A DNA stretch of 18,152 nt from a virus (lineage: Duplodnaviria; Heunggongvirae; Uroviricota; Caudoviricetes), in IMG/VR virus record IMGVR_UViG_2645727555_000018, positions 1 through 18,152 of that record; one strand, 5' to 3'. The notes under the pieces are model-generated. The model saw nothing but the letters and a program-made list of their open reading frames with translations. It made no database searches and was not told the origin of the DNA. Made by a program: the position numbers and the translations under genes. Shown here piece by piece: positions 510-17,755 of this stretch. How positions within the stretch are numbered: position 1 is the first letter of the stretch; each line of letters starts with the position of its first letter.

Positions 510-552
510 AATCATTTTCACAAATCAGATAAGGCAGAAAACAAATTGTTAT
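510..552 (-). promoter_or_regulatory. promoter/operator module: dyad GAAAACAAATTGTT (536-550) plus extended -10 TGTGAAAAT
   Basis: Same dyad recurs at least 9 times in the window. Here it sits where a -35 would be, just downstream of the terminator at 561-588 and upstream of gene 105..479. Confidence 0.4.
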
Positions 553-1584: not shown

Positions 1585-1914
1585 TTACGCGAATACCTCA
1601 AGAAACTCCTGAACGTCCCAATGCTGGACGAGGTGAAGATAGACCTTAGAAATCACGTCATTTTCGCTATCGCATGTGAAGTAGTACTTCTGGCTGCGGT
1701 TGTATGTGTCCACACAAAATTCGCTCATATCCATAAAGTCAGCATCTTCACCCATGTCGCAAATCATCAAAGCAGGTGCGTCATCACGAGTCATCAGCTC
1801 CAGCACCCATCTTGAATTAATCAGAGTGGAAGACCAACCTTCCAGCTCATAGAACTGGTCAAATTCTTTTTGAGTCAATTTCTTGATTTGGTTGATGTCG
1901 ATATTTGCAAACAT
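1585..1914 (-). CDS. hypothetical acidic protein (109 aa); ORF runs to 1935 but the SD-backed ATG is at 1914
   Basis: AAGGA 7 nt upstream of ATG(1914). The first 7 ORF codons are the translated promoter dyad. Confidence 0.55.
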   Translation of the reverse strand: MFANIDINQIKKLTQKEFDQFYELEGWSSTLINSRWVLELMTRDDAPALMICDMGEDADFMDMSEFCVDTYNRSQKYYFTCDSENDVISKVYLHLVQHWDVQEFLEVFA

Positions 1915-1970
1915 AAAGGAATCCTTAAACAACATGTTTTCTTGATGGTGTTATTATCGCAATAACACAC
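1915..1970 (-). promoter_or_regulatory. promoter/operator module: extended -10 TGCGATAAT followed by dyad AAACATGTTGTTT, then SD
   Basis: Minus strand reads TTGCGATAATAACACCATCAAGAAAACATGTTGTTTAAGGA. Almost the same string precedes the methyltransferase gene at 16991..17040. Confidence 0.45.
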
Positions 1971-2277
1971 AGGCGAAAAAGGATTTTATTCCGGTGAATG
2001 TGGTTTTGGCAGTGAGTTTTCAGGTTCAGTACCGAGTACACTTTTTACATTATTCTGATTTAGTGGCCGAAAGTGGCTGGTGGGCAGAATAATCCTCTCC
2101 CCGAAAACCTACTGAAATCGATTGTGACCCGTTGGCTGTCTGGCACAATTACGCTGTAGCTGGCATTCAGAGGGAATCCAGCGGTAAGCAAGTCCGCCTG
2201 CACGTGAGCGCCTCTCTTCTTCCCGCACATTACAGGTGGGTAGCCGCAACTCTCCCTCTCGCTATACCGGTACGCCA

Positions 2278-2424
2278 CCGTTCCTGAACCGGCATCGAGC
2301 CTTTTCCCGAAATCCACACAGGCAACTCGACCGTTTCCCTGAAAACCTCCAGCCGTTCCCCGAAGGCAACCCAGCCGTTTCTGTAGCGGGATGCAGCCTT
2401 TTCCCTGTATGGACCGAAGGCTGA
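2278..2424. repeat. array of six imperfect ~22-bp tandem direct repeats (consensus CCGTTYCCYGAA-N7-8-CAG); iteron- or centromere-like
   Basis: Units start at 2278, 2300, 2331, 2353, 2375 and 2397. Three are exactly 22 bp. The period is not a multiple of 3, so the overlapping ORF 2060..2566 is unlikely to be coding. Confidence 0.55.
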
Positions 2425-2460
2425 CCGTAGGGGTGTTACGGGGGATGGAATCAGGAGTTG

Positions 2461-2494
2461 AATAAATACGAAAAAGGAGGCGACACCCCTCCTT
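2461..2494 (-). terminator. intrinsic terminator at the 3' end of the G-poor noncoding segment
   Basis: Stem AAGGAGG/CCTCCTT (2474-2480 / 2488-2494) with 7-nt loop, followed on the minus strand by UUUCGUAUUUAUU. Confidence 0.5.
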
Positions 2495-3335
2495 CCCTCT
2501 CCACTTATACATACCTGGCTTCTTCGCTATACATGTTGTGTTTTCTTCGTGTTTTATCTGTCTCAACCTCTCTATAGGCGTTAATGCTCACTCCTTCCAG
2601 AACGTTCTATACGGCGACTATTTCTGTTGGTGAATTGGGTGTGTTGTTTTCTCTGTCGGTGTATGTGGTTTCGTTAGTTTTGCGGTGGTTCTTCTATGGG
2701 GTGTTCTCGTCGTTTTGGTGATTGTTCTTCTCCGTGTATGGAGTAATGGCAGGTGGGCGAATCCTTTCGTTATTGTGTTTGAGTTGTTTGTCTGGAGTGT
2801 GAAGGGCTTTTGTAGTTATTCGTGTATTGGGTAATGGCGTTTCCCGTGATTGTTCTGTTTCGTGTCTTTTGGGATTGAGAGAATCCTTGCGGTAACAGGC
2901 TTCGTTGGGGTTTCAGTGGTTCAGGTGTTTCTTCGCTGTTTGGGTAATGGCGTGTCGTGGGTATCGCGCGTATGAATATTTTCGGATTGCCTGTGAAAGT
3001 TAGGTTGGTTGTCCGGTAGCCTGGGGAGAAGAGGTGGGTCTTTTCGGTAGCCTGCCATAAAGAGGTTGGTTGTTTTGGGGAATGGCATGTGTGTTATTTA
3101 GTTGTTTTGTTATAGCTGAAAATAAGTTGTTTATATAGTTATGTAACGCAATGGGAGTGATTTTGAGCGTGTGTTTTTGTTGGTAGTGTGTTGGGTCGTC
3201 TGTGGTGAAAATTGGACGCTGTGGCGCTGTCTGCTGCGTAGAATTACGGGTATAAGAAGTGATGTGTGAATACGTCAATTTTTTAGACCAAATCGGGTGA
3301 AAGCGTTGACGTTTCGTTGATCTGTTATTTAGTTG
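2495..3335 (-). ncRNA. candidate long noncoding transcript, C/A-rich and G-poor on the minus strand; function unknown
   Basis: No convincing ORF in any frame. Plus strand is extremely G+T rich (for 2641-2700: G20 T30 C7 A3). Bounded by a degenerate promoter motif at 3336-3370 and the terminator at 2461-2494. Contains internal repeats GGGTAATGGCG (2744, 2830, 2943, 3081) and CGGTAGCCTG (3016, 3045). Confidence 0.25.
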
Positions 3336-3370
3336 TTTTCTTATTGGTATAAACAACGTTAACCTATTGA
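3336..3370 (-). promoter_or_regulatory. degenerate copy of the promoter module (TTGTTTTCTTATTGG half-dyad)
   Basis: Matches the right half of the module (CCAATAAGAAAACAA on the minus strand) but has lost the second dyad arm and has no SD or ORF behind it. Confidence 0.3.
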
Positions 3371-3485
3371 TATTTAAAGGTGTGATTGCAGGTATGGAAG
3401 AAGAGTAGTGGCGATCAACGGATTCTTATAGAAAAGAATCAAATTGTGACCGCCATTATCAACTGATTGATTAAGCTAATTACAC

Positions 3486-4715
3486 TCAAACATCCCCGTT
3501 CTTAATCCACTGCCTGACTTGCTCGTCTTGTGCGACTTCTTTCTCATGTTTGGCAATATACAAGTCTGGCAATAGGGGTGGAGCGAATTCAGGCTCTGTC
3601 GCACGCCACTTTTCATATGCGTCACGCATGGATTTCTCAACATTCCAATGCTCCAACTCTTGGTATTCAATCGGCCAGTTATCCTGCAATCTCTTCACTG
3701 CATTAGCCAGGTCGTATCGGAAGTAAGGATTAAGACCAATGAAATTACCAGCCAGCATGTCATCAACCTCCTTCACTCTGGCAATCTTAGAAAACTTACC
3801 AATAGCAATGTTGAGGTCCCAATCTGACACGAACAACAAAAGTGCTGCAAATGCCAGAAACTTAGCTTCCCCGTATGCTCTGTCGCTAACCGTTTTTGTC
3901 TGAAACTCAATGTAATTGCCCATCACAAAACTAGTAAGCTTACAGGTCTTACTTATCTCGTCCTCCAAATGCGATGGATCGAGAATTGTGCGGTCACGAT
4001 TATTGTTTATGTGTTCTAAGATTACAGCAATGTCTCTATGTGAGACTGAAATTTCACGCAATTGCTGGAGAGTCTTGATGTGAACTCTTAGCACCTCTTT
4101 GTCAATCGCACGCTTCCAAGAAAAACCAGGCACAGTAACCTGAATGGGCGCGAAAGGTAGAATATCAGGAGTTGTCCATGCTAGATATGCATCACGTAAC
4201 CCACTAATATAATAAAGCCAGTCTAAATGCTCGCTTTCTAACCATATTTCAAATGTGGAATCCTTTCGCTTATTGAAGAACCATTCCCTCATCTGCCACA
4301 TTTTTTCTTGAGTAAATATCCCTTCCTGTATGCCGGCACAGACCAGCTTTCGTATTACCTGCGAATACTTTGTTCGATCTTTTGTGAATGAGACAAGGTG
4401 CTGCTTCACCTCAGATGTTAGTCTATCTCCATAGAAATCACATGATGGATGATGGCCTTGACCATCTTCACCGGTAAATCTGAAATGCGCCTTCTTGTGA
4501 TAGCCACCATTCCTAGTGGCTCTAACGAACGAACCACCTCCAACTTTGCAAATGGGGCAGATGATATCGTCACGGGCAATAGCATGAACCGAGCTGTCAT
4601 CTAAATTCTTTAGCGCCAAGTACTGCTCAGGATCGACTTCTTTTTGTAACGATTTTGAAAAAGCGGTATCAGTCATTCCAAGCTCCGAGCAAGGGGTTAT
4701 TTGTTCAATTATCAT
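3486..4715 (-). CDS. hypothetical 396-409 aa protein with N-terminal Cys/His zinc-ribbon-like motif; AT-rich cargo gene
   Basis: Long ORF. Motif CPICK...(29 aa)...HHPSCDF. ATG at 4676 has a GGAG SD, ATG at 4715 has none. GC content visibly lower than neighbours. None of the shared promoter modules upstream. Confidence 0.6.
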   Translation of the reverse strand: MIIEQITPCSELGMTDTAFSKSLQKEVDPEQYLALKNLDDSSVHAIARDDIICPICKVGGGSFVRATRNGGYHKKAHFRFTGEDGQGHHPSCDFYGDRLTSEVKQHLVSFTKDRTKYSQVIRKLVCAGIQEGIFTQEKMWQMREWFFNKRKDSTFEIWLESEHLDWLYYISGLRDAYLAWTTPDILPFAPIQVTVPGFSWKRAIDKEVLRVHIKTLQQLREISVSHRDIAVILEHINNNRDRTILDPSHLEDEISKTCKLTSFVMGNYIEFQTKTVSDRAYGEAKFLAFAALLLFVSDWDLNIAIGKFSKIARVKEVDDMLAGNFIGLNPYFRYDLANAVKRLQDNWPIEYQELEHWNVEKSMRDAYEKWRATEPEFAPPLLPDLYIAKHEKEVAQDEQVRQWIKNGDV

Positions 4716-5146: not shown

Positions 5147-5232
5147 TTCAACCACTCCGAAACAATTTGTTTTCTTATGTGGCTTATTATCTCAATCAAC
5201 AAAAGGTAGAAAACAAATTGTTTTAGGGCTTG
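5147..5232 (-). promoter_or_regulatory. dual-dyad promoter module: dyad 1 (5209-5224), extended -10 TGAGATAAT, dyad 2 (5158-5173), then SD
   Basis: Minus strand reads CCCTAAAACAATTTGTTTTCTACCTTTTGTTGATTGAGATAATAAGCCACATAAGAAAACAAATTGTTTCGGAG. It aligns almost base-for-base with 14040..14115. Confidence 0.45.
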
Positions 5233-5307: not shown

Positions 5308-7341
5308 TTACTTAACCTGGTGGCCAGGTTTAGCACCAGCATCCGGGCTTAACAGGAAGATATCTTTCCCGCCGGGGCCAGCAGCCATCACCATGCCTTC
5401 AGAGATACCGAAGCGCATTTTACGCGGAGCCAGGTTAGCCACCATAATGGTGTGACGACCAATCAGTGCCTGTGGATCTGGATAAGCGGAACGGATGCCT
5501 GAGAAGACATTACGCTTTTCACCACCGAGATCCAGCGTCAGGCGAAGCAGTTTGTCAGAACCTTCGACAAACTCCGCGTTTTCAATCAGCGCTACACGCA
5601 GGTCAACTTTGGCGAAGTCGTCAAAGGTGATGGTTTCCTGAATCGGGTCGTCAGCCAGTGGGCCAGTTACCGGTGCAGCTGTGGCTTTCACTTCTTCTTT
5701 GGATGCTTCCACCAGTGCTTCCACCTGTTTCATATCGATACGGTTATACAGTGCCTTGAACGGATTCACTTTATGGCCCAGCAGCGGTTGCTGGATACCA
5801 TCCCAGGTCAGTTCTGTATTCAGGAATGCTTCTGCACGTTCAGTCAGTTTCGGCAGTACCGGTTTCAGGTACGTCATCAGCACGCGGAACAGGTTAATGC
5901 CCATAGAGCAAATCGCCTGCAGATCGGCATCGCGTCCTTCCTGCTTCGCCACCACCCACGGAGCCTGTTCATCGACATAGCGGTTAGCCAGATCAGCCAG
6001 CGCCATGATTTCACGAATCGCTTTACCAAATTCGCGGCTTTCCCATGCTTCACCAATCACTTCAGCGGCATCAGTAAAGGTTTTGTACAGTTGCGGGTCA
6101 GCCAGTTCGCCTGCCAGCACACCGTCAAAACGCTTATTGATAAAGCCCGCGTTACGGGACGCCAGATTCACCACTTTGTTCACGATATCGGCATTCACGC
6201 GCTGAACGAAATCCTCCAGGTTGAGATCGATATCATCAATGCGCGAAGAGAGTTTCGCAGTGTAGTAGTAACGCAGGCTGTCAGCGTCAAAATGATTCAG
6301 CCAGGTGCTGGCTTTAATAAAGGTGCCGCGAGACTTGGACATCTTCGCACCGTTCACCGTCACATAGCCATGAACAAATAGGTTGGTCGGCTTGCGGAAG
6401 TTGCTGCCTTCCAGCATGGCAGGCCAGAACAGGCTGTGGAAGTAAACGATATCTTTACCGATGAAGTGGTACAGCTCGGCGGTGGAGTCTTTCTTCCAGT
6501 ATTCGTCGAAGCTGGTAGTGTCGCCGCGTTTGTCGCACAGATTCTTGAAGGAACCCATGTAGCCAATCGGTGCGTCCAGCCAGACGTAGAAATATTTGCC
6601 CGGTGCGTTCGGAATTTCAAAACCGAAGTACGGCGCATCGCGGGAGATATCCCACTGTTGCAGGCCAGATTCAAACCACTCCTGCATTTTGTTTGCCACC
6701 TGCTCCTGCAACGCACCGCTGCGGGTCCATGCCTGCAACATTTCGCTGAAAGAGGGCAGATCAAAGAAGAAGTGTTCGGAATCACGCATTACCGGCGTAG
6801 CACCAGAAACTACCGATTTCGGCTCGATCAGTTCAGTCGGGCTGTAAGTCGCGCCGCAGACTTCACAGTTATCGCCGTATTGATCTGGCGCTTTACATTT
6901 AGGACAGGTGCCTTTTACAAAACGGTCCGGCAGGAACATGCCTTTTTCCGGGTCGTACAACTGAGAGATAGTGCGGTTTTTAATAAAACCGTTCTCTTTC
7001 AGGCGAGTATAGATAAGCTCAGACAACTGACGGTTCTCTTCGCTGTGCGTCGAGTGATAGTTGTCATAGCTGATGTTAAAGCCTGCGAAATCAGTCTGGT
7101 GTTCCTGACTCATTTCGCCAATCATCTGCTCCGGTGTGATACCAAGTTGCTGTGCTTTCAGCATGATCGGCGTACCGTGGGCATCGTCGGCACAGATGAA
7201 ATTAACCTCGTGGCCGCGCATTCGCTGGTAACGAACCCAGACATCAGCCTGGATGTGCTCCAGCATATGGCCGAGGTGGATTGAGCCGTTAGCGTACGGC
7301 AGCGCGCACGTCACCAGAATTTTCTTCGCGACTTGGGTCAT
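5308..7341 (-). CDS. metG: methionine--tRNA ligase (677 aa)
   Basis: N-terminus [29 protein letters not shown] with the class I HIGH-type motif (HLGH), the KMSKS motif (GAKMSKSRG) and a zinc-knuckle CPKC...CEVC. ORF extends to 7470 but the conserved start is ATG(7341). Confidence 0.97.
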
Positions 7342-7498
7342 AGTAGGCATTACTTCTTTGTAGTGAAAAGGGGCTTGATAGTAACAAAATGGCCTTATGT
7401 CTGCCATGTGATAACAGCATTTCTCATAAATGATTAAATGTCGCAGCTGGAGTACACTACAAGGCGACAATTGCGCAAATTAAAATAAAGGAGACGGG
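7342..7498. promoter_or_regulatory. divergent metG / apbC promoter region
   Basis: 157-bp AT-rich intergenic spacer between the two divergent start codons; AAGGAG SD precedes the apbC ATG. Confidence 0.5.
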
Positions 7499-8599
7499 AT
7501 GAGCGAGTCCAAATCGCCGGATGCCCTGAGAGCAATGGTAGCCGGTACGCTGGCTAATTTTCAGCACCCAACCCTGAAACACAACCTGACTACGCTTAAA
7601 GCGTTACACCATGTTGCGTTGATGGATGACACACTGCATGTCGAACTAATCATGCCTTTCGTGTGGAATAAGCCTTTTGAAGACCTGAAAGAGCAATGTA
7701 GTGGTGATCTGCTCCGTATCACTGGCGCAAAGGCTATTGACTGGAAGCTGTCGTACAACATTGCCACGCTTAAGCGCGTCAAAAACCAACCAGGCATTAA
7801 TGGTGTTAAGAATATTATCGCCGTAAGCTCAGGCAAGGGCGGTGTAGGCAAATCGTCCACAGCAGTAAACTTGGCACTGGCTTTGGCTGCTGAAGGTGCG
7901 AAAGTTGGTATTTTGGATGCCGATATCTATGGTCCATCAATTCCAACCATGCTGGGCGCGGAAAACCAACGTCCAACCTCACCTGACGGTACTCACATGG
8001 CACCTATCATGTCTCATGGCCTGGCAACCAACTCTATTGGTTATCTGGTCACCGACGACAATGCAATGGTGTGGCGTGGACCGATGGCCAGCAAGGCGCT
8101 GATGCAGATGTTGCAGGAAACTCTATGGCCTGATCTGGACTATCTCGTTCTCGATATGCCGCCGGGCACTGGTGATATTCAGTTGACGCTGGCGCAGAAC
8201 ATTCCTGTAACTGGTGCGGTTGTGGTAACTACGCCGCAAGACATCGCGCTGATCGATGCGAAGAAAGGCATTGTGATGTTCGAAAAAGTCGAAGTGCCGG
8301 TACTAGGTATCGTCGAAAACATGAGTGTGCATATTTGCAGTAACTGCGATCATCACGAGCCAATTTTTGGCACCGGTGGCGCACAGAAACTGGCCGAGAA
8401 ATACAACACGCAGTTGTTAGGCCAAATGCCACTTCATATCTCTCTTCGTGAAGATCTGGATAACGGAACACCAACCGTTATTAGTCGTCCAGATAGCGAA
8501 TTTACGGCTATTTATCGTGACCTCGCAGATCGCGTTGCTGCCCAAATGTATTGGCAAGGTGAAGTAATACCTGGCGAAATCGCATTCCGCGCAGTGTGA
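7499..8599 (+). CDS. apbC: iron-sulfur cluster carrier ATPase ApbC/Mrp
   Basis: P-loop GKGGVGKS, CSNC motif, C-terminal ...GEVIPGEIAFRAV; full-length 366-aa ORF. Confidence 0.95.
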   Translation: MSESKSPDALRAMVAGTLANFQHPTLKHNLTTLKALHHVALMDDTLHVELIMPFVWNKPFEDLKEQCSGDLLRITGAKAIDWKLSYNIATLKRVKNQPGINGVKNIIAVSSGKGGVGKSSTAVNLALALAAEGAKVGILDADIYGPSIPTMLGAENQRPTSPDGTHMAPIMSHGLATNSIGYLVTDDNAMVWRGPMASKALMQMLQETLWPDLDYLVLDMPPGTGDIQLTLAQNIPVTGAVVVTTPQDIALIDAKKGIVMFEKVEVPVLGIVENMSVHICSNCDHHEPIFGTGGAQKLAEKYNTQLLGQMPLHISLREDLDNGTPTVISRPDSEFTAIYRDLADRVAAQMYWQGEVIPGEIAFRAV

Positions 8600-8636: not shown

Positions 8637-9026
8637 CTACATCACAGGACAATCATCAAACTCGCCACTTCTTGCGTCGTTGATAATGTGAGTGATCACA
8701 CCAAACACGGCATTGCTGCCCGTGCATCCATCATCATCCTTTGGCAATGCTTCCTTCTTACCAGTTCTTAAATCCTCCAGATGCTGACGTGGATACTTCC
8801 GGTATCTTTTTACGCGATATTCCCCATCCAGAGCACATACAAGAAGAGATCCATCAACAGGAGTCAGTGAGGAATCGACCACCAGCAATGCACCCTGCAA
8901 TATTCCCTCACGATGATGACTATCAGCCGCCCTCATGAAGTAGGTCGCTGAAGGATGTCTAATTATCTGCTGATCAAGAGAAATACGGCTCTCAGCATAA
9001 TCCGCCGCAGGAGAAGGGAAGCCCAT
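8637..9026 (-). CDS. UmuD'-like S24 peptidase-family protein encoded without the N-terminal arm (humD-like)
   Basis: Begins MGFPSPAADY, i.e. at the position of the UmuD Cys24-Gly25 autocleavage site. Ser (AADSH) and Lys (EYRVKRY) of the catalytic dyad are present. C-terminal VFGVITHII matches UmuD VFGVVIHVV. No umuC-like gene is adjacent. Confidence 0.85.
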   Translation of the reverse strand: MGFPSPAADYAESRISLDQQIIRHPSATYFMRAADSHHREGILQGALLVVDSSLTPVDGSLLVCALDGEYRVKRYRKYPRQHLEDLRTGKKEALPKDDDGCTGSNAVFGVITHIINDARSGEFDDCPVM

Positions 9027-14039: not shown

Positions 14040-14115
14040 TCTTAACTCCGTTGTTTTCTAGTTGTGGTTATTTTCACAAATAAGAAAAGGTAGAAAACAA
14101 TTTATTTAAGGCCAC
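14040..14115 (-). promoter_or_regulatory. dual-dyad promoter module for the 8-gene operon
   Basis: Minus strand reads GCCTTAAATAAATTGTTTTCTACCTTTTCTTATTTGTGAAAATAACCACAACTAGAAAACAACGGAG. Aligns with 5147..5232, including the TTGTTTTCTACCTTTT block and a TGnGAAAAT extended -10. Confidence 0.45.
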
Positions 14116-14158: not shown

Positions 14159-14539
14159 CTAATTGCCGGATAAAATGGGGTGAGGTGCTTGCCAGTAGGC
14201 TCCACCGGTCCATGTGAACCCCATGCGAATAAGAGTGTTTATTGCGGCTTTGGTAGACTCCGATTCGACACTGGCTTTTCGAAACTCTTGAACCTCTTTC
14301 GCCAACTTGTATGTAATTGTGCAGGGGACGATTGCAGCCCAGCCTTTCTCATGACTGTTAATGACCATCTGGATGTGACCATCCAGAATAGGTTGATTAG
14401 GCATGTTATTGAAAATGTCTGCCTGTTTTTGAATGTGAAGAAAAAGCCTTGCCAGCTCCATTTGCTCACTACGAGACAAGGGATTATCAAGAGGGCTTTT
14501 TGCAAAAGCGGCTATACGCTGTGCGTCAATGCCAAACAT
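14159..14539 (-). CDS. hypothetical protein (126 aa)
   Basis: TGATG overlap with the upstream gene. Confidence 0.55.
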   Translation of the reverse strand: MFGIDAQRIAAFAKSPLDNPLSRSEQMELARLFLHIQKQADIFNNMPNQPILDGHIQMVINSHEKGWAAIVPCTITYKLAKEVQEFRKASVESESTKAAINTLIRMGFTWTGGAYWQAPHPILSGN

Positions 14540-15304: not shown

Positions 15305-16990
15305 TCATTTAACGCGTTTGAAAACGTATACGCTGACTGTGATCCCTGTGTCTTCAAACTCGTTGGTAAACGACTTCCCTCTGGCATAAACGTAATTATC
15401 CATCGTCATCCAGTCCAGTATTGGTGCAGTGCCCGGCAATACTGCTACAAGACGCCCGCCGACTTTCAGATGCCCCAGCGCAGCCATCGTGTGCTCTCTA
15501 TGACGACCAAGCGAGTACGGCGGGTTCATAACGATTTTGTCGAACTGATAACCTGCGTTGTCCTCAGACCACTTTATGAAGTCGCAGCAAATCGTGTTCG
15601 TATACCCTTTTCCACGCAGGATATCAGCGAAGAGAGGTGCGATTTCTATGCAGGTAACATCTTCCAGATCGGCGTTAATATAGGCCAGAAGATCCCCACG
15701 TCCGGCTTGAGGCTCCAGCAGCTTCTCACCAGACTTCAATTCAGTGGCTCTGGCAACGTACTCAGCAATCAAGCGTGGGGTAGGGTAGAACTGGTGTGAT
15801 TTAGTATCCGGTATTAAACCGGTAGCCACAATCGTATTTAGCGTATGGCCGATGTCATACGGGAACTGCCAGTGCTTTTTCTCCTGCACGCCGCCAATGA
15901 AGCTCAGTGTGCGCTCAAGCTCTTCCACCTGCGACTTCTGGAGAGCTGAATCAGAGAAGTACCATACGCCTTTGTCTTTGCTCAATCGCCCGTCACGAAG
16001 CGCAGTGCGAACCGGCACGGAGATCGTCTTCTGGATTAACCCGAACTGCTTTGGTGCCCGTGTTTTTGGCGCAGTTCGGCATGGCGCGGGGATTGCAGCA
16101 GGCATACTGTAAGCCAGCACCTCATTCAACTTCCAGGCCACGTCAGGATGTATTTCAAAGTGAACGTTGCCGTTCTTGAACATCTTCACGCGCATCAGAT
16201 TTCCATCGACGTTCATCCAGTCACCGGTCTGGCAGTCGTTTGCCCTATACGCAGCTGATAGCACCTCAGCAGTGCGGTTGATGGTAATAAATTCTTTGTG
16301 CGCGAAGAAATGAAGCAAGACACGCAGATCGTCGATGTAGTCCTCTTTGCGATAGTTCACGCTAACGCTGTCCCGCCAGAAATCAGAAATGCAGTCAGCG
16401 ATTATCAGCCGCTCGCTGAAACCGTTTGTCTTATTTGTCTTGTGCGCAGGACTCAGCGCCTTAAACAAGCCATACACGCGCTCAGAGAGATATTTGTGCC
16501 TGTCATTCAGCAAATTAAGCATCGTGGGTATGACCGTTTCTGCTTTGAACTCCGGTACACCAACGAACTCTTTAACCTTCATCTGGTAGCCGGTTCTGTC
16601 AGTTTTGATGACTTCCTGTTTGCCCTCTATAAACTGCTCGCGCCACTCATCTCGACGGGAAGCTGGCATGATCAGCAAAACGTTAGTCATGTCCGTGACC
16701 TTCCTCCAGTACTCGGCCCAAATATTCTGTTTCACCCATTCCAGATCGACTTTATCCAACCAACCTCGATTTAAACGCGAGCGATCTTCATCTGGTCGAT
16801 GGTTTAGTCTCAGCAGGCGATTAATCATGTTGTGGCGTTCGTCGCCATAAACGAAGTCGTGTACCTGATACATGAAGGCGATCTCTTTCTCGCACTCGGC
16901 CACGATTTCGTGGATGACATTCATTTCCTGACGATAGTCGATAGCCGTGTTTGAGCTGGCATCGTCGATGATAGAAAGGGCTGTATTCAT
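15305..16990 (-). CDS. putative N6-adenine DNA methyltransferase (gamma-class motif order) with about 400-aa N-terminal extension; no obvious partner endonuclease
   Basis: C-terminal FYPTP, then LEPQAGRGDL (AdoMet motif I), then IVMNPPYS (motif IV) about 60 aa later. Confidence 0.75.
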   Translation of the reverse strand: MNTALSIIDDASSNTAIDYRQEMNVIHEIVAECEKEIAFMYQVHDFVYGDERHNMINRLLRLNHRPDEDRSRLNRGWLDKVDLEWVKQNIWAEYWRKVTDMTNVLLIMPASRRDEWREQFIEGKQEVIKTDRTGYQMKVKEFVGVPEFKAETVIPTMLNLLNDRHKYLSERVYGLFKALSPAHKTNKTNGFSERLIIADCISDFWRDSVSVNYRKEDYIDDLRVLLHFFAHKEFITINRTAEVLSAAYRANDCQTGDWMNVDGNLMRVKMFKNGNVHFEIHPDVAWKLNEVLAYSMPAAIPAPCRTAPKTRAPKQFGLIQKTISVPVRTALRDGRLSKDKGVWYFSDSALQKSQVEELERTLSFIGGVQEKKHWQFPYDIGHTLNTIVATGLIPDTKSHQFYPTPRLIAEYVARATELKSGEKLLEPQAGRGDLLAYINADLEDVTCIEIAPLFADILRGKGYTNTICCDFIKWSEDNAGYQFDKIVMNPPYSLGRHREHTMAALGHLKVGGRLVAVLPGTAPILDWMTMDNYVYARGKSFTNEFEDTGITVSVYVFKRVK

Positions 16991-17040
16991 AATTACACCA
17001 TTAAATAATTTGTTTTCTGATTGGTGTAATTATCGCAAAC
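16991..17040 (-). promoter_or_regulatory. promoter/operator module for the methyltransferase operon: TGCGATAAT extended -10 plus dyad
   Basis: Minus strand reads TTGCGATAATTACACCAATCAGAAAACAAATTATTTAATGGTGTAATT then ATG. A 10-bp inverted repeat AATTACACCA/TGGTGTAATT (16991-17000 / 17022-17031) brackets the dyad and abuts the start codon. Confidence 0.45.
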
Positions 17041-17698: not shown

Positions 17699-17755
17699 GT
17701 GTTTTCCTTAATGCTTAAACAAGTTGTTTTCTTATTGGTTTTATTGTGATGTGGC
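17699..17755 (-). promoter_or_regulatory. promoter/operator module (dyad AAACAAGTTGTTTTC)
   Basis: Plus strand AAACAAGTTGTTTTCTTATTGGTTTTATTGTG; same family as 1915..1970. Confidence 0.4.

What the first reader, a model, noticed from the sequence alone, without database searches (positions are those of the whole stretch)
2278..2424. Six ~22-bp tandem direct repeats next to the skewed segment
The consensus CCGTTYCCYGAA-N7-8-CAG repeats with a period of about two helical turns, and one half of each unit is conserved while the other half varies. This is the architecture of iterons bound by a replication initiator, or of a partition-protein site. The repeats are contiguous, so this is not CRISPR. 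No recognisable Rep or Par gene is adjacent; the nearest candidate is the uncharacterised 409-aa zinc-ribbon protein about 1 kb away. A perfect Chi octamer GCTGGTGG lies at 2076-2083.
Basis: seen in the sequence. Interest (0 to 1): 0.6.

Follow-up and report, generated by a model that had tools for sequence, protein, structure and literature searches.

The report
Conserved orphan iteron-like repeat array
The repeats are real: six phased copies of a short DNA motif, kept in place across a whole family of phage-plasmids, that are not the plasmid's replication-origin repeats and probably act as a docking site for an unidentified DNA-binding protein, possibly a partition protein.

Summary
The window comes from an SSU5-like phage-plasmid of E. 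coli, about 97% identical to phage Cyrano/pLF82.

**Observation.** Six units start at 2278, 2300, 2331, 2353, 2375 and 2397 (spacings 22, 31, 22, 22, 22). They share the core CCKTTYC(C). None of 5000 local shuffles gave six hits.

**Conservation.** The array lies in a 1.5-kb gene-free region. It is kept at the same place from E. coli to Moellerella: core about 94% identical, spacers about 63%, and units lost in exact 22-bp steps. A second, 3-unit array of the same motif lies 3.1 kb to the left, just outside the window. The two arrays bracket a small leftward operon.

**What it is not.**
- Coding sequence, CRISPR, or a structured RNA.
- The RepA origin. RepA sits 35 kb away with different iterons (GTATGCTGTCAGCGGT) and a DnaA box. 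In Moellerella the RepA iterons have changed completely while this motif has not.
- A site for the 409-aa neighbour, which is accessory.

**Best reading (about 0.3).** A phased protein-binding array serving as a remote centromere for an orphan ParA plus RHH-like pair that has no repeat array of its own.

**Rivals.** A boundary or looping element, a lytic-origin element, or a host-factor site.

This is a new member of a known kind, and its function is untested.

The parts
2278..2299 (+). Unit 1: CCGTTCCTGAACCGGCATCGAG
   Evidence: Motif hit. Conserved position in all 6-unit lineages.
2300..2330 (+). Unit 2: a long, 31-bp unit, CCTTTTCCCGAAATCCACACAGGCAACTCGA
   Evidence: The 31-bp spacing is kept in the E. 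coli, Salmonella and Enterobacter lineages and is 22 bp in the Klebsiella lineage.
2331..2352 (+). Unit 3: CCGTTTCCCTGAAAACCTCCAG. This is the best-conserved unit; all 22 bp are identical in SSU5.
2353..2374 (+). Unit 4: CCGTTCCCCGAAGGCAACCCAG
   Evidence: One 22-bp unit-length stretch starting in unit 3 (window 2343-2364) is missing in phage PhiR41_1, which leaves 5 units.
2375..2396 (+). Unit 5: CCGTTTCTGTAGCGGGATGCAG
2397..2418 (+). Unit 6: CCTTTTCCCTGTATGGACCGAA
2094..2112 (+). Outlying degenerate unit, CCTCTCCCCGAAAACCTAC, inside a conserved block that begins with Chi
   Evidence: family D4. The block 2075-2130 is conserved in most lineages.
2076..2083 (+). Chi octamer GCTGGTGG. It is conserved in most lineages. 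The genome is Chi-rich overall.
2435..2463 (+). Conserved flank GTTACGGGGGAT...TTGAAT between the array and the terminator; its role is unknown
   Evidence: Invariant columns. TTGAAT plus flanking sequence is also present in the pCAV-type and K. ozaenae relatives.
2471..2497 (-). Intrinsic terminator hairpin of leftward transcription, ending about 45 bp before the array
   Evidence: The fold is more stable on the minus strand in every lineage, with G-U pairs and changed stem sequences. Alifold z = -7.3 on the minus strand versus -1.2 on the plus strand.
1927..1961 (-). Promoter-like module of the small-gene operon downstream of the array: extended -10 TGcGATAAT (1961->1953) and palindrome AAACAACATGTTT (1927-1939)

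Best explanation
**What it is.** The array is a set of phased binding sites on double-stranded DNA for one sequence-specific protein that is not the plasmid initiator RepA. Each unit offers a core of about 8-12 bp, (C)AG-CCKTTYCC(C). Cores sit two helical turns apart, or three for the long unit, which in the main E. coli, Salmonella, Enterobacter and Klebsiella lineages puts bound proteins roughly on one face of the helix, where they could form a higher-order complex. In the distant relatives the spacings are 28-36 bp and this phasing does not hold.

**Second array.** A 3-unit array of the same motif and orientation lies 3.1 kb to the left, just outside the window. The two arrays bracket a small leftward operon, and each lies just downstream of a leftward terminator (about 45 bp for array 1, about 30 bp for array 2).

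**Most likely role (inferred, not shown).** The two arrays are centromere-like sites of the phage-plasmid. They would be bound by the small basic RHH-like protein encoded next to a 222-aa ParA-type ATPase. That pair has no repeat array of its own. The resulting complex would be moved by ParA so that the roughly 3-copy plasmid prophage is segregated.

**How sure.** About 0.8 that this is a DNA-level protein-binding array unrelated to RepA. About 0.3 for the partition role.
For: **DNA-level site array**
- Significant clustering and a 22-bp period.
- Present at the syntenic place in every SSU5-like lineage examined: E. coli, Shigella, Salmonella SSU5/pHCM2, Enterobacter, Citrobacter, Klebsiella pKPHS1, pCAV1015-111, a K. 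ozaenae plasmid and Moellerella.
- Window versus SSU5: cores 45/48 identical, spacers 53/84 (counted).
- Spacings across lineages are 22 (rarely 21 or 23), 31, 33/34 and 43. Units are lost in exact 22-bp steps.
- No conserved RNA structure in the array on either strand, and no Rfam match.
- RefSeq leaves the region unannotated in relatives.

**Not RepA**
- RepA and its unrelated iterons lie elsewhere.
- The iterons differ in Moellerella while the array motif does not.

**Partition role**
- The ParA matches NF041546 'ParA family partition ATPase' end to end.
- Its 117-aa partner has a disordered basic N-terminal tail followed by a strand-helix-helix pattern. It gives a weak hit to an RHH family.
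- The residues expected to read DNA (KSRTMS.EDE and RSDVIRAAI) are invariant across the 14 enterobacterial cluster representatives aligned; in Moellerella they carry substitutions (KSRTVSMEDE, RSDVFRAAL).
- No repeat array lies next to that operon. Its promoter carries the generic palindromic operator instead.
- Both arrays are kept in a 62-kb derivative that has lost all virion genes but keeps RepA and the ParA/RHH-like pair.
- Copy number of about 3 is reported for Cyrano (bioRxiv 10.1101/2022.10.28.514194).
Against: - The candidate partner genes are 67 kb away. In characterised type Ib systems the centromere adjoins the operon (established knowledge).
- The RHH fold is not confirmed. The AlphaFold monomer model has mean pLDDT 70, and Foldseek against the PDB found nothing.
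- pMT1 of Y. pestis appears to lack the RHH-like protein: no Yersinia among the 797 tblastn hits. Yet it keeps array 2 intact. This may only reflect recent divergence.
- In the most distant relatives the spacings are 28, 34 and 36 bp and there are only 2-3 units, so strict two-turn phasing is not universal.
- Other conserved DNA-binding candidates exist: two ParB_N-domain proteins with an ABC ATPase 5-8 kb away, and host factors.
- No binding, stability or incompatibility data exist.
Confidence: 0.3

Rival explanations
1. Boundary or looping element. A phage-plasmid or host protein binds both arrays and bridges them. This would enclose the small leftward operon in a loop, or act as a roadblock that reinforces the terminators just upstream of each array, insulating that operon from the long leftward transcription unit.
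For: - Each array lies just downstream (leftward) of a minus-strand intrinsic terminator: about 45 bp for array 1 and about 30 bp for array 2.
- The two arrays bracket one operon in every lineage, although the genes inside vary.
- Upstream of array 1 lies about 850 nt of ORF-less, C-rich and G-poor leftward transcript, which looks like a Rho-loading zone.
Against: - The operon already has its own promoter with the generic palindromic operator.
- Array 1 is 310-470 bp from that promoter.
- No regulator has been tied to the motif.
- This reading does not explain why the motif is invariant while the operator diverges in Moellerella.
Confidence: 0.22
2. Phage-mode (lytic) origin element. The arrays would be binding sites of a lytic initiator, arranged as two separated clusters like ori and crr of phage P4 or oriL and oriR of SPP1.
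For: - The element encodes its own replisome (DnaB-like helicase, primase, Pol III alpha, ligase), but no lytic origin is assigned.
- There are two clusters of one motif, kilobases apart and in the same orientation.
- A compositionally unique segment lies next to array 1.
- No repeats were found in or near the gene upstream of the helicase, where lambdoid origins lie.
Against: - There is no AT-rich unwinding region next to either side of array 1: GC is 0.54-0.57 across the array windows and 0.46 just to its right.
- No DnaA boxes.
- No initiator gene is adjacent.
- The replication genes are more than 40 kb away.
- Leftward transcription of the skewed segment would give C-rich RNA, which is not R-loop prone (inference).
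Confidence: 0.13
3. Docking array for a conserved host protein of Enterobacterales, such as a nucleoid-associated protein or transcription factor, exploited by the phage-plasmid.
For: - The motif is invariant from Escherichia to Moellerella (Morganellaceae), while the element's own RepA/iteron pair and palindromic operator have diverged.
- Array 2 survives in pMT1, and both arrays survive in the 62-kb derivative, although different element-encoded candidates are missing in each.
Against: - I could not match the core to any host-factor consensus I know (from memory, not tested).
- In the 110-kb genome the motif is clustered only at these two loci.
Confidence: 0.12
4. RNA-level element. A transcript carrying repeated CCGUUUCCC (plus strand) or GGGAAACGG (minus strand) would act as an unstructured protein sponge, a Rho-loading site, or an sRNA.
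For: - On the minus strand, five of the six units contain GGA.
- The plus strand of the array is C-rich (GC skew -0.19).
- The element encodes a FljA-like RNA-binding repressor homologue.
Against: - No promoter was found that would transcribe the array.
- On the minus strand the array lies after a conserved terminator.
- No conserved structure and no Rfam match.
- The long unit adds about one helical turn, which is a DNA-level constraint.
- The FljA homologue is absent from Moellerella, which keeps the arrays.
Confidence: 0.07
5. Iterons or copy-control sites of the plasmid initiator RepA, acting like incA of P1.
For: - The 22-bp period and half-conserved units look like Rep_3-type iterons.
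- The short string CAGCCGT resembles CAGCGGT inside the true iteron.
Against: - The true iterons, GTATGCTGTCAGCGGT, flank repA 35 kb away together with a DnaA box.
- The Moellerella RepA has the different iteron CGACCACTATAGAGAGCA, yet the array motif is unchanged.
- No DnaA box lies nearby.
Confidence: 0.03

Closest known systems
Type Ib/II plasmid centromeres made of direct repeats (parC1/parC2 of pB171, parH of TP228, parC of pSK41 with four 20-bp repeats), and the dispersed centromeres of phage-plasmid N15
   Same: - Clusters of short direct repeats at roughly helical phase.
- Two clusters in one element.
- A small ParA plus a small basic, RHH-like partner is encoded by the element.
- N15 shows that phage-plasmid centromeres can lie far from the par genes.

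These comparisons are from memory of the literature and were not tested here.
   Different: - The arrays are 67 kb from the ParA operon and flank unrelated small genes.
- Only about 8 of 22 bp per unit are conserved.
- Binding by the partner protein has not been shown, and its RHH fold is unconfirmed.
Iterons of Rep_3/RepA-type theta replicons (P1 oriR/incA, R6K, pPS10, RK2)
   Same: A 22-bp period, same-orientation tandem units, and one conserved half per unit.
   Different: - No adjacent rep gene, no DnaA box and no AT-rich region.
- The element's real RepA iterons are elsewhere and unrelated.
- The array does not co-vary with RepA.
Bipartite phage origins with separated iteron clusters (P4 ori/crr; SPP1 oriL/oriR)
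   Same: Two clusters of one motif a few kilobases apart in the same orientation, in a phage that carries its own replication genes.
   Different: - No initiator has been identified.
- No unwinding element lies beside the arrays.
- There is no experimental link to replication.
Dispersed operator regulons of plasmid prophages (P1 C1 operators; stoperators of cluster A mycobacteriophages)
   Same: Non-palindromic sites recur in one orientation relative to transcription.
   Different: - This element already has such a regulon built on a different sequence, the palindrome AAACAAnTTGTTT at promoters.
- The CCKTTYCC units are clustered at only two loci and do not overlap promoters.

Membership tests
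Rep_3/RepA-type origin iterons | Tandem same-orientation repeats of about 17-22 bp at helical phase | tested here: met
Rep_3/RepA-type origin iterons | A cognate initiator gene next to the repeats, or repeats identical to those at the initiator gene | tested here: not met
   RepA lies at NZ_CP027358.1 52266-53480, 35 kb away. Its iterons GTATGCTGTCAGCGGT are unrelated.
Rep_3/RepA-type origin iterons | A DnaA box and an AT-rich unwinding element beside the repeats | tested here: not met
   No DnaA box with up to 1 mismatch lies between 1 and 5400. GC is 0.54-0.57 across the array windows and 0.46 just to its right.
Rep_3/RepA-type origin iterons | Repeat sequence changes together with initiator specificity | tested here: not met
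   The Moellerella RepA is 50% identical and has the new iteron CGACCACTATAGAGAGCA. The array motif CCGTTTCCCGAAACC is unchanged.
Rep_3/RepA-type origin iterons | The fragment supports autonomous replication or exerts incompatibility | not testable with these tools
   Needs cloning and transformation assays.
Plasmid partition centromere (type Ib-like) | A cluster of repeated short sites | tested here: met
   6 (+1) units in the window and 3 in the second array.
Plasmid partition centromere (type Ib-like) | A ParA ATPase and a small centromere-binding protein encoded by the same element | tested here: inconclusive
   The ParA matches NF041546 over its full length but scores below the curated cut-off (115.7 versus 180 bits). 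The partner is RHH-like by sequence pattern and a weak aCcr1 hit only; structure search was uninformative.
Plasmid partition centromere (type Ib-like) | The site adjoins the par operon | tested here: not met
   The ParA operon is at 84257-85284 and the arrays at 14434 and 17563 of NZ_CP027358.1. No repeats lie beside the operon.
Plasmid partition centromere (type Ib-like) | The site co-occurs with the binding protein across elements | tested here: inconclusive
   They co-occur in all complete SSU5-like elements examined, including Moellerella. However, pMT1 keeps array 2 without a detectable RHH-like homologue.
Plasmid partition centromere (type Ib-like) | The site is bound by the partner protein and stabilises a replicon in cis | not testable with these tools
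   Needs EMSA or ChIP and stability assays.
CRISPR array | Identical repeats separated by unique spacers of similar length, usually with cas genes | tested here: not met
   Units are contiguous, only about 7 positions are shared, the same 'spacers' are conserved between lineages, and there are no cas genes.
Structured non-coding RNA | A conserved secondary structure with compensatory changes, or an Rfam match | tested here: not met
   Alifold z is -0.8 (plus) and -2.3 (minus) for the array. Rfam gives no hit at E up to 1. Only the neighbouring terminator behaves as RNA.
Protein-coding tandem repeat | A conserved open reading frame, with indels in multiples of three | tested here: not met
   The period is 22 bp. 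There are 22-bp and 1-bp indels between close relatives. The ORF 2060..2566(-) has no PHROG or Pfam family. RefSeq annotates no gene there.

The most novel reading that the evidence does not exclude
The two arrays would be a remote, split centromere, or more generally a nucleoprotein 'handle'. It would be used by a type Ib-like ParA system whose genes lie 67 kb away, and it would be conserved unchanged across the whole SSU5/pHCM2/pKpn/pSLy3/pCAV supergroup, and beyond it in Moellerella, while the replication and immunity specificities of these elements diverged.

This would be a shared partition or incompatibility determinant for roughly 800 sequenced clinical plasmids. Its placement at the end of the long lytic transcription unit might couple segregation to the lysis-lysogeny state.
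Probability: 0.25. Interest if true: 0.6.

Novelty: new member of a known kind. Interest (0 to 1): 0.45.

Why it matters
SSU5-like phage-plasmids (pHCM2 of S. Typhi, pKPHS1-type Klebsiella plasmids, pLF82/Cyrano, relatives of Y. pestis pMT1) are common in clinical Enterobacterales and can carry resistance genes. Their maintenance and regulatory sites are almost uncharacterised. I found no paper that describes this region.

A cis element that stays invariant across the whole group, while RepA/iteron and operator specificities diverge, is a good candidate for a shared partition, incompatibility or host-interaction determinant. It is also small enough to test directly.

The analysis also separates this array from the true oriR. 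That matters to anyone building mini-replicons or typing schemes from these elements.

Tried and rejected
**Repeat and RNA tools**
- Tandem Repeats Finder does not detect the array, even at score 30.
- Rfam at E up to 1 finds nothing in the window.
- RNAalifold on both strands, with column shuffles, finds no structure in the array.

**Collection scans**
A repeat-based pattern in viral contigs did recover many SSU5-like loci, but no array in any other kind of element.

**Protein searches**
- Pfam, PHROGs and PDB sequence searches of the small proteins between the arrays found no DNA-binding domain.
- AlphaFold2 plus Foldseek on the RHH-like protein gave a helical monomer model and no significant PDB match.

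**Ideas considered and rejected**
- A sigma-54 promoter at 2142-2157: the GG-N10-GC spacing holds only in the E. coli lineage.
- A sigma-70 promoter using the conserved TTGAAT and TATAC boxes: their spacing is about 40 bp.
- A pac or cos site: the ends of the Cyrano record map near the terminase genes, about 10 kb from the nearer array 2 and about 13 kb from array 1 (by my coordinate estimate).
- Integrase arm sites: the integrase gene is more than 50 kb away and the arrays are 3 kb apart.
- An R-loop origin in the GT-rich segment: the likely leftward transcript would be C-rich.
- The CobS/CobT-like AAA+ and VWA genes: they are not a partition system.

**Uninformative or unavailable**
- A 49-kb Klebsiella record turned out to be an incomplete contig.
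- The 2026 preprint on phage-plasmid heteroresistance, which discusses repA, could not be opened.

Full report
**Context**

The window is part of an SSU5-like phage-plasmid of Escherichia. Bases 1900-3500 are 96-97% identical to phage Cyrano (pLF82) and to CMS-2020a, and 92% identical to PhiR41_1. They are 98.8% identical to E. coli plasmid NZ_CP027358.1. I fetched that plasmid whole as a reference; window position x corresponds to record position x + 15286.

Nearly all genes of this 110-kb element point leftward, on the minus strand. The exception is a short rightward block at 9.3-13.9 kb of the reference.

- CC[GT]TT[TC]C[CT] occurs at 2278, 2300, 2331, 2353, 2375 and 2397.
- None of 5000 dinucleotide-preserving shuffles of 2240-2440 gives six hits (maximum 3).
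- Self-identity peaks at lags 22 and 44.
- Among the six units only C-C-.-T-T-.-C is invariant.
- One interval is 31 bp rather than 22 bp.
- TRF misses the array.
- A degenerate seventh unit lies at 2094-2112, beside the Chi octamer at 2076-2083.

**It is non-coding and acts at the DNA level**

The array lies in a gene-free stretch of about 1.5 kb (1936-3485). RefSeq leaves this stretch unannotated in E. coli, Salmonella and pHCM2 relatives. The mechanical ORFs across it have no PHROG or Pfam family. The period is not a multiple of three, and close relatives differ by 22-bp and 1-bp indels.

RNAalifold on 19 non-redundant lineages finds no conserved structure in the array on either strand (z = -0.8 and -2.3). 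Rfam finds nothing.

The hairpin at 2497->2471 is different: it behaves as RNA on the minus strand. It is more stable there in every lineage, uses G-U pairs, and changes stem sequence between lineages. It is the intrinsic terminator of leftward transcription.

**Conservation pattern**

BLAST finds the region in 717 PLSDB plasmids and 12 phage records. In distant relatives the part that still aligns (about 70% identity) is precisely the array plus the terminator.

In alignments of E. coli, Shigella, SSU5, pHCM2, Enterobacter, Salmonella Tennessee, pKPHS1 and IMG/VR contigs, the units keep their positions.
- Window versus SSU5: cores 45/48 identical, spacers 53/84 (counted).
- Spacings across lineages are 22 (occasionally 21 or 23), 31, 33/34 or 43.
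- PhiR41_1 and one IMG/VR contig each lack exactly one 22-bp unit.
- The extra length of the long unit is about one helical turn. That is a constraint on DNA, not on RNA.

More distant elements keep the core at the syntenic place with fewer units. These are a K. ozaenae plasmid, pCAV1015-111 and a Moellerella plasmid. Their cores read CCGTTTCCCG or CCGTTTCCCGAAACC, they carry 2-3 units, and the spacings are 28-36 bp.

**A second array**

Scanning the whole reference plasmid shows the motif is not enriched overall (20 plus-strand hits against 18 expected). Nine of the 20, however, fall in two windows of about 125 bp. One is the array; the other is a cluster at 14434-14537 (3 units plus one chance hit in a terminator hairpin), 3.1 kb to the left, on the same strand and just outside the window.

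This second array is present in every lineage, including pMT1 of Y. pestis and Moellerella. Its layout is 22 + 33/34 bp.

The two arrays always bracket a leftward operon of small genes of unknown function, whose content varies between lineages. Each array lies just downstream of a leftward terminator, about 45 bp for array 1 and about 30 bp for array 2.

**Not the replication origin**

The plasmid initiator, a RepB-family RepA, is at 52266-53480 of the reference. It is flanked by at least 14 copies of GTATGCTGTCAGCGGT at 21-bp spacing, with a DnaA box and GATC repeats.

No DnaA box lies near the array, and the neighbouring DNA is not AT-rich.

In Moellerella, RepA is 50% identical and its iterons have become CGACCACTATAGAGAGCA, yet the array motif is unchanged. 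The array therefore does not follow RepA specificity.

The 409-aa neighbour is accessory. It is absent from Cyrano and PhiR41_1 and has no family match.

**Who might bind it**

The small operon's promoter is an extended -10 (TGcGATAAT, 1961->1953) followed by the palindrome AAACAACATGTTT. The same -10 plus palindrome module recurs at 9 sites in the window and 18 in the plasmid, against 0.4 expected. It looks like a global operator regulon, so the arrays are not that operator.

The palindrome is not conserved in Moellerella, whereas the array motif is. The array's binder must therefore be unusually conserved in specificity, or be a host protein.

Candidates encoded by the element:
- **(a) The 117-aa protein next to a 222-aa ParA.**
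  - The ParA matches NF041546 'ParA family partition ATPase' over its full length.
  - The small protein has a disordered basic tail, then a strand-helix-helix pattern, and a weak hit to an RHH family.
  - Its presumed DNA-reading residues are invariant across the 14 enterobacterial cluster representatives aligned, with substitutions in Moellerella (KSRTVSMEDE, RSDVFRAAL).
  - No repeat array lies next to that operon.
- **(b) Two ParB_N-domain proteins with an ABC ATPase**, 5-8 kb from the arrays.
- **Excluded as required partners:** the FljA-like protein and the 160-aa protein beside array 2, because Moellerella lacks both.

Natural variants do not discriminate between (a) and (b).
- A 62-kb E. 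albertii derivative lacks all virion genes and the ParB_N/ABC genes. It keeps RepA, ParA with its partner, and both arrays.
- pMT1 keeps the ParB_N/ABC genes and array 2. It seems to lack the RHH-like protein, and the array 1 region is replaced by IS1541.
- Both cases are recent events, so retention says little about selection.

**Verdict**

The array is a genuine, deeply conserved array of phased protein-binding sites on DNA, of the iteron or centromere kind, and it is an orphan. I am about 0.8 confident of that.

Its role is not established.
- My best guess is a remote centromere for the orphan ParA/RHH-like pair (about 0.3). That system needs a site and has none nearby, the array has the form of known repeat centromeres, and the copy number is about 3.
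- Rivals are a boundary or looping element around the bracketed operon (0.22), a lytic-origin element (0.13), a host-factor site (0.12), an RNA-level element (0.07) and RepA control sites (0.03).

I found no description of this region in the literature.

Noticed in passing
Window 539-551, 1443-1455, 1927-1939, 3120-3132, 5160-5172, 5211-5223, 14095-14107, 17003-17015, 17717-17729: The palindrome AAACAAnTTGTTT lies a few to about 13 nt downstream of a GATAAT-type -10 box on the minus strand, ahead of many leftward genes. There are 9 sites in the window (0 of 200 shuffles reach 9) and 18 in the whole plasmid against 0.4 expected, including the parA promoter. It looks like the operator of a global repressor regulon. 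It is not conserved in the Moellerella relative.
   Followed up: partly
Window about 2550-3300: A GT-skewed, ORF-less segment (GC skew up to +0.53, AT skew down to -0.53). It is the only such outlier in the 110-kb plasmid. The composition is conserved from E. coli to Moellerella. It carries repeated GGGTAATGGC-type modules. The leftward transcript would be C/A-rich and G-poor, ending at the 2497->2471 terminator, so it may be a Rho-loading zone or a long non-coding RNA.
   Followed up: partly
NZ_CP027358.1 14434-14510 (L009), 3.1 kb left of the array and outside the window: A second, 3-unit array of the same motif in the same orientation. It is flanked by inverted Chi sites at 14391 (-) and 14515 (+). 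It is conserved in all lineages, including Y. pestis pMT1.
   Followed up: yes
Window 2076-2083 and the whole reference plasmid: Chi (GCTGGTGG) occurs 22 times in 110 kb (9 plus, 13 minus) against about 3.4 expected. The copy at 2076 is conserved in most lineages.
   Followed up: partly
Window 3092-3146 and 3323-3377: Two copies of TGTTATTTAGTTGTTTT(G/C)TTAT... at the right end of the gene-free region. They resemble the promoter-proximal leader (ATAAGAAAACAAC) of the operator-bearing promoters but lack a good -10 box. They may be degenerate promoter or operator copies.
   Followed up: partly
Window 3486-4715 (-): A 409-aa protein with a Cys/His cluster. It is a member of phrog_12525 but has no Pfam, NCBIfam or PADLOC match. 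It occupies a variable slot: another gene replaces it in Cyrano, and the slot is empty in PhiR41_1.
   Followed up: partly
Window 5308-7470 (-), 7499-8599 (+), 8637-9026 (-): Cargo genes: a full-length methionyl-tRNA synthetase, an ApbC/Mrp-type Fe-S carrier ATPase (a ParA-fold protein, but not a partition protein), and an S24 peptidase (UmuD/LexA-like) lacking a DNA-binding domain.
   Followed up: no
NZ_CP027358.1 84257-85284 (L010 34257-35284): An orphan partition-like pair: a 222-aa ParA (NF041546-like) and a 117-aa basic, RHH-like protein. The family is restricted to SSU5-like elements (32 clusters, no Pfam). No repeat array lies beside the operon.
   Followed up: partly
NZ_CP027358.1 11669-12193 (L009): A homologue of FljA, the Salmonella repressor of phase-1 flagellin (PF03614, E = 1.5e-84, with a weak Hfq-like hit), lies in the rightward block next to array 2. 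It is absent from the Moellerella relative.
   Followed up: no
NZ_CP027358.1 14020-14320 (L009): The intergenic region left of array 2 holds several GCGTTA/AACGCG-type repeats and a perfect 18-bp palindrome, TAATCACATATGTGATTA. These may be further protein-binding sites.
   Followed up: no
CP043251.1 / CP043243.1 (L373, L374): 62-kb E. albertii plasmids are deletion derivatives. They have lost all virion genes and the ParB_N/ABC genes but keep RepA, ParA plus its RHH-like partner, both arrays, and added toxin-antitoxin genes.
   Followed up: partly
Window 15305-16990 (-): A 561-aa DUF4942-type protein gives PADLOC hits to mad2 and to type II methyltransferase models. It may be a DNA-modification or anti-defence gene.
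   Followed up: no
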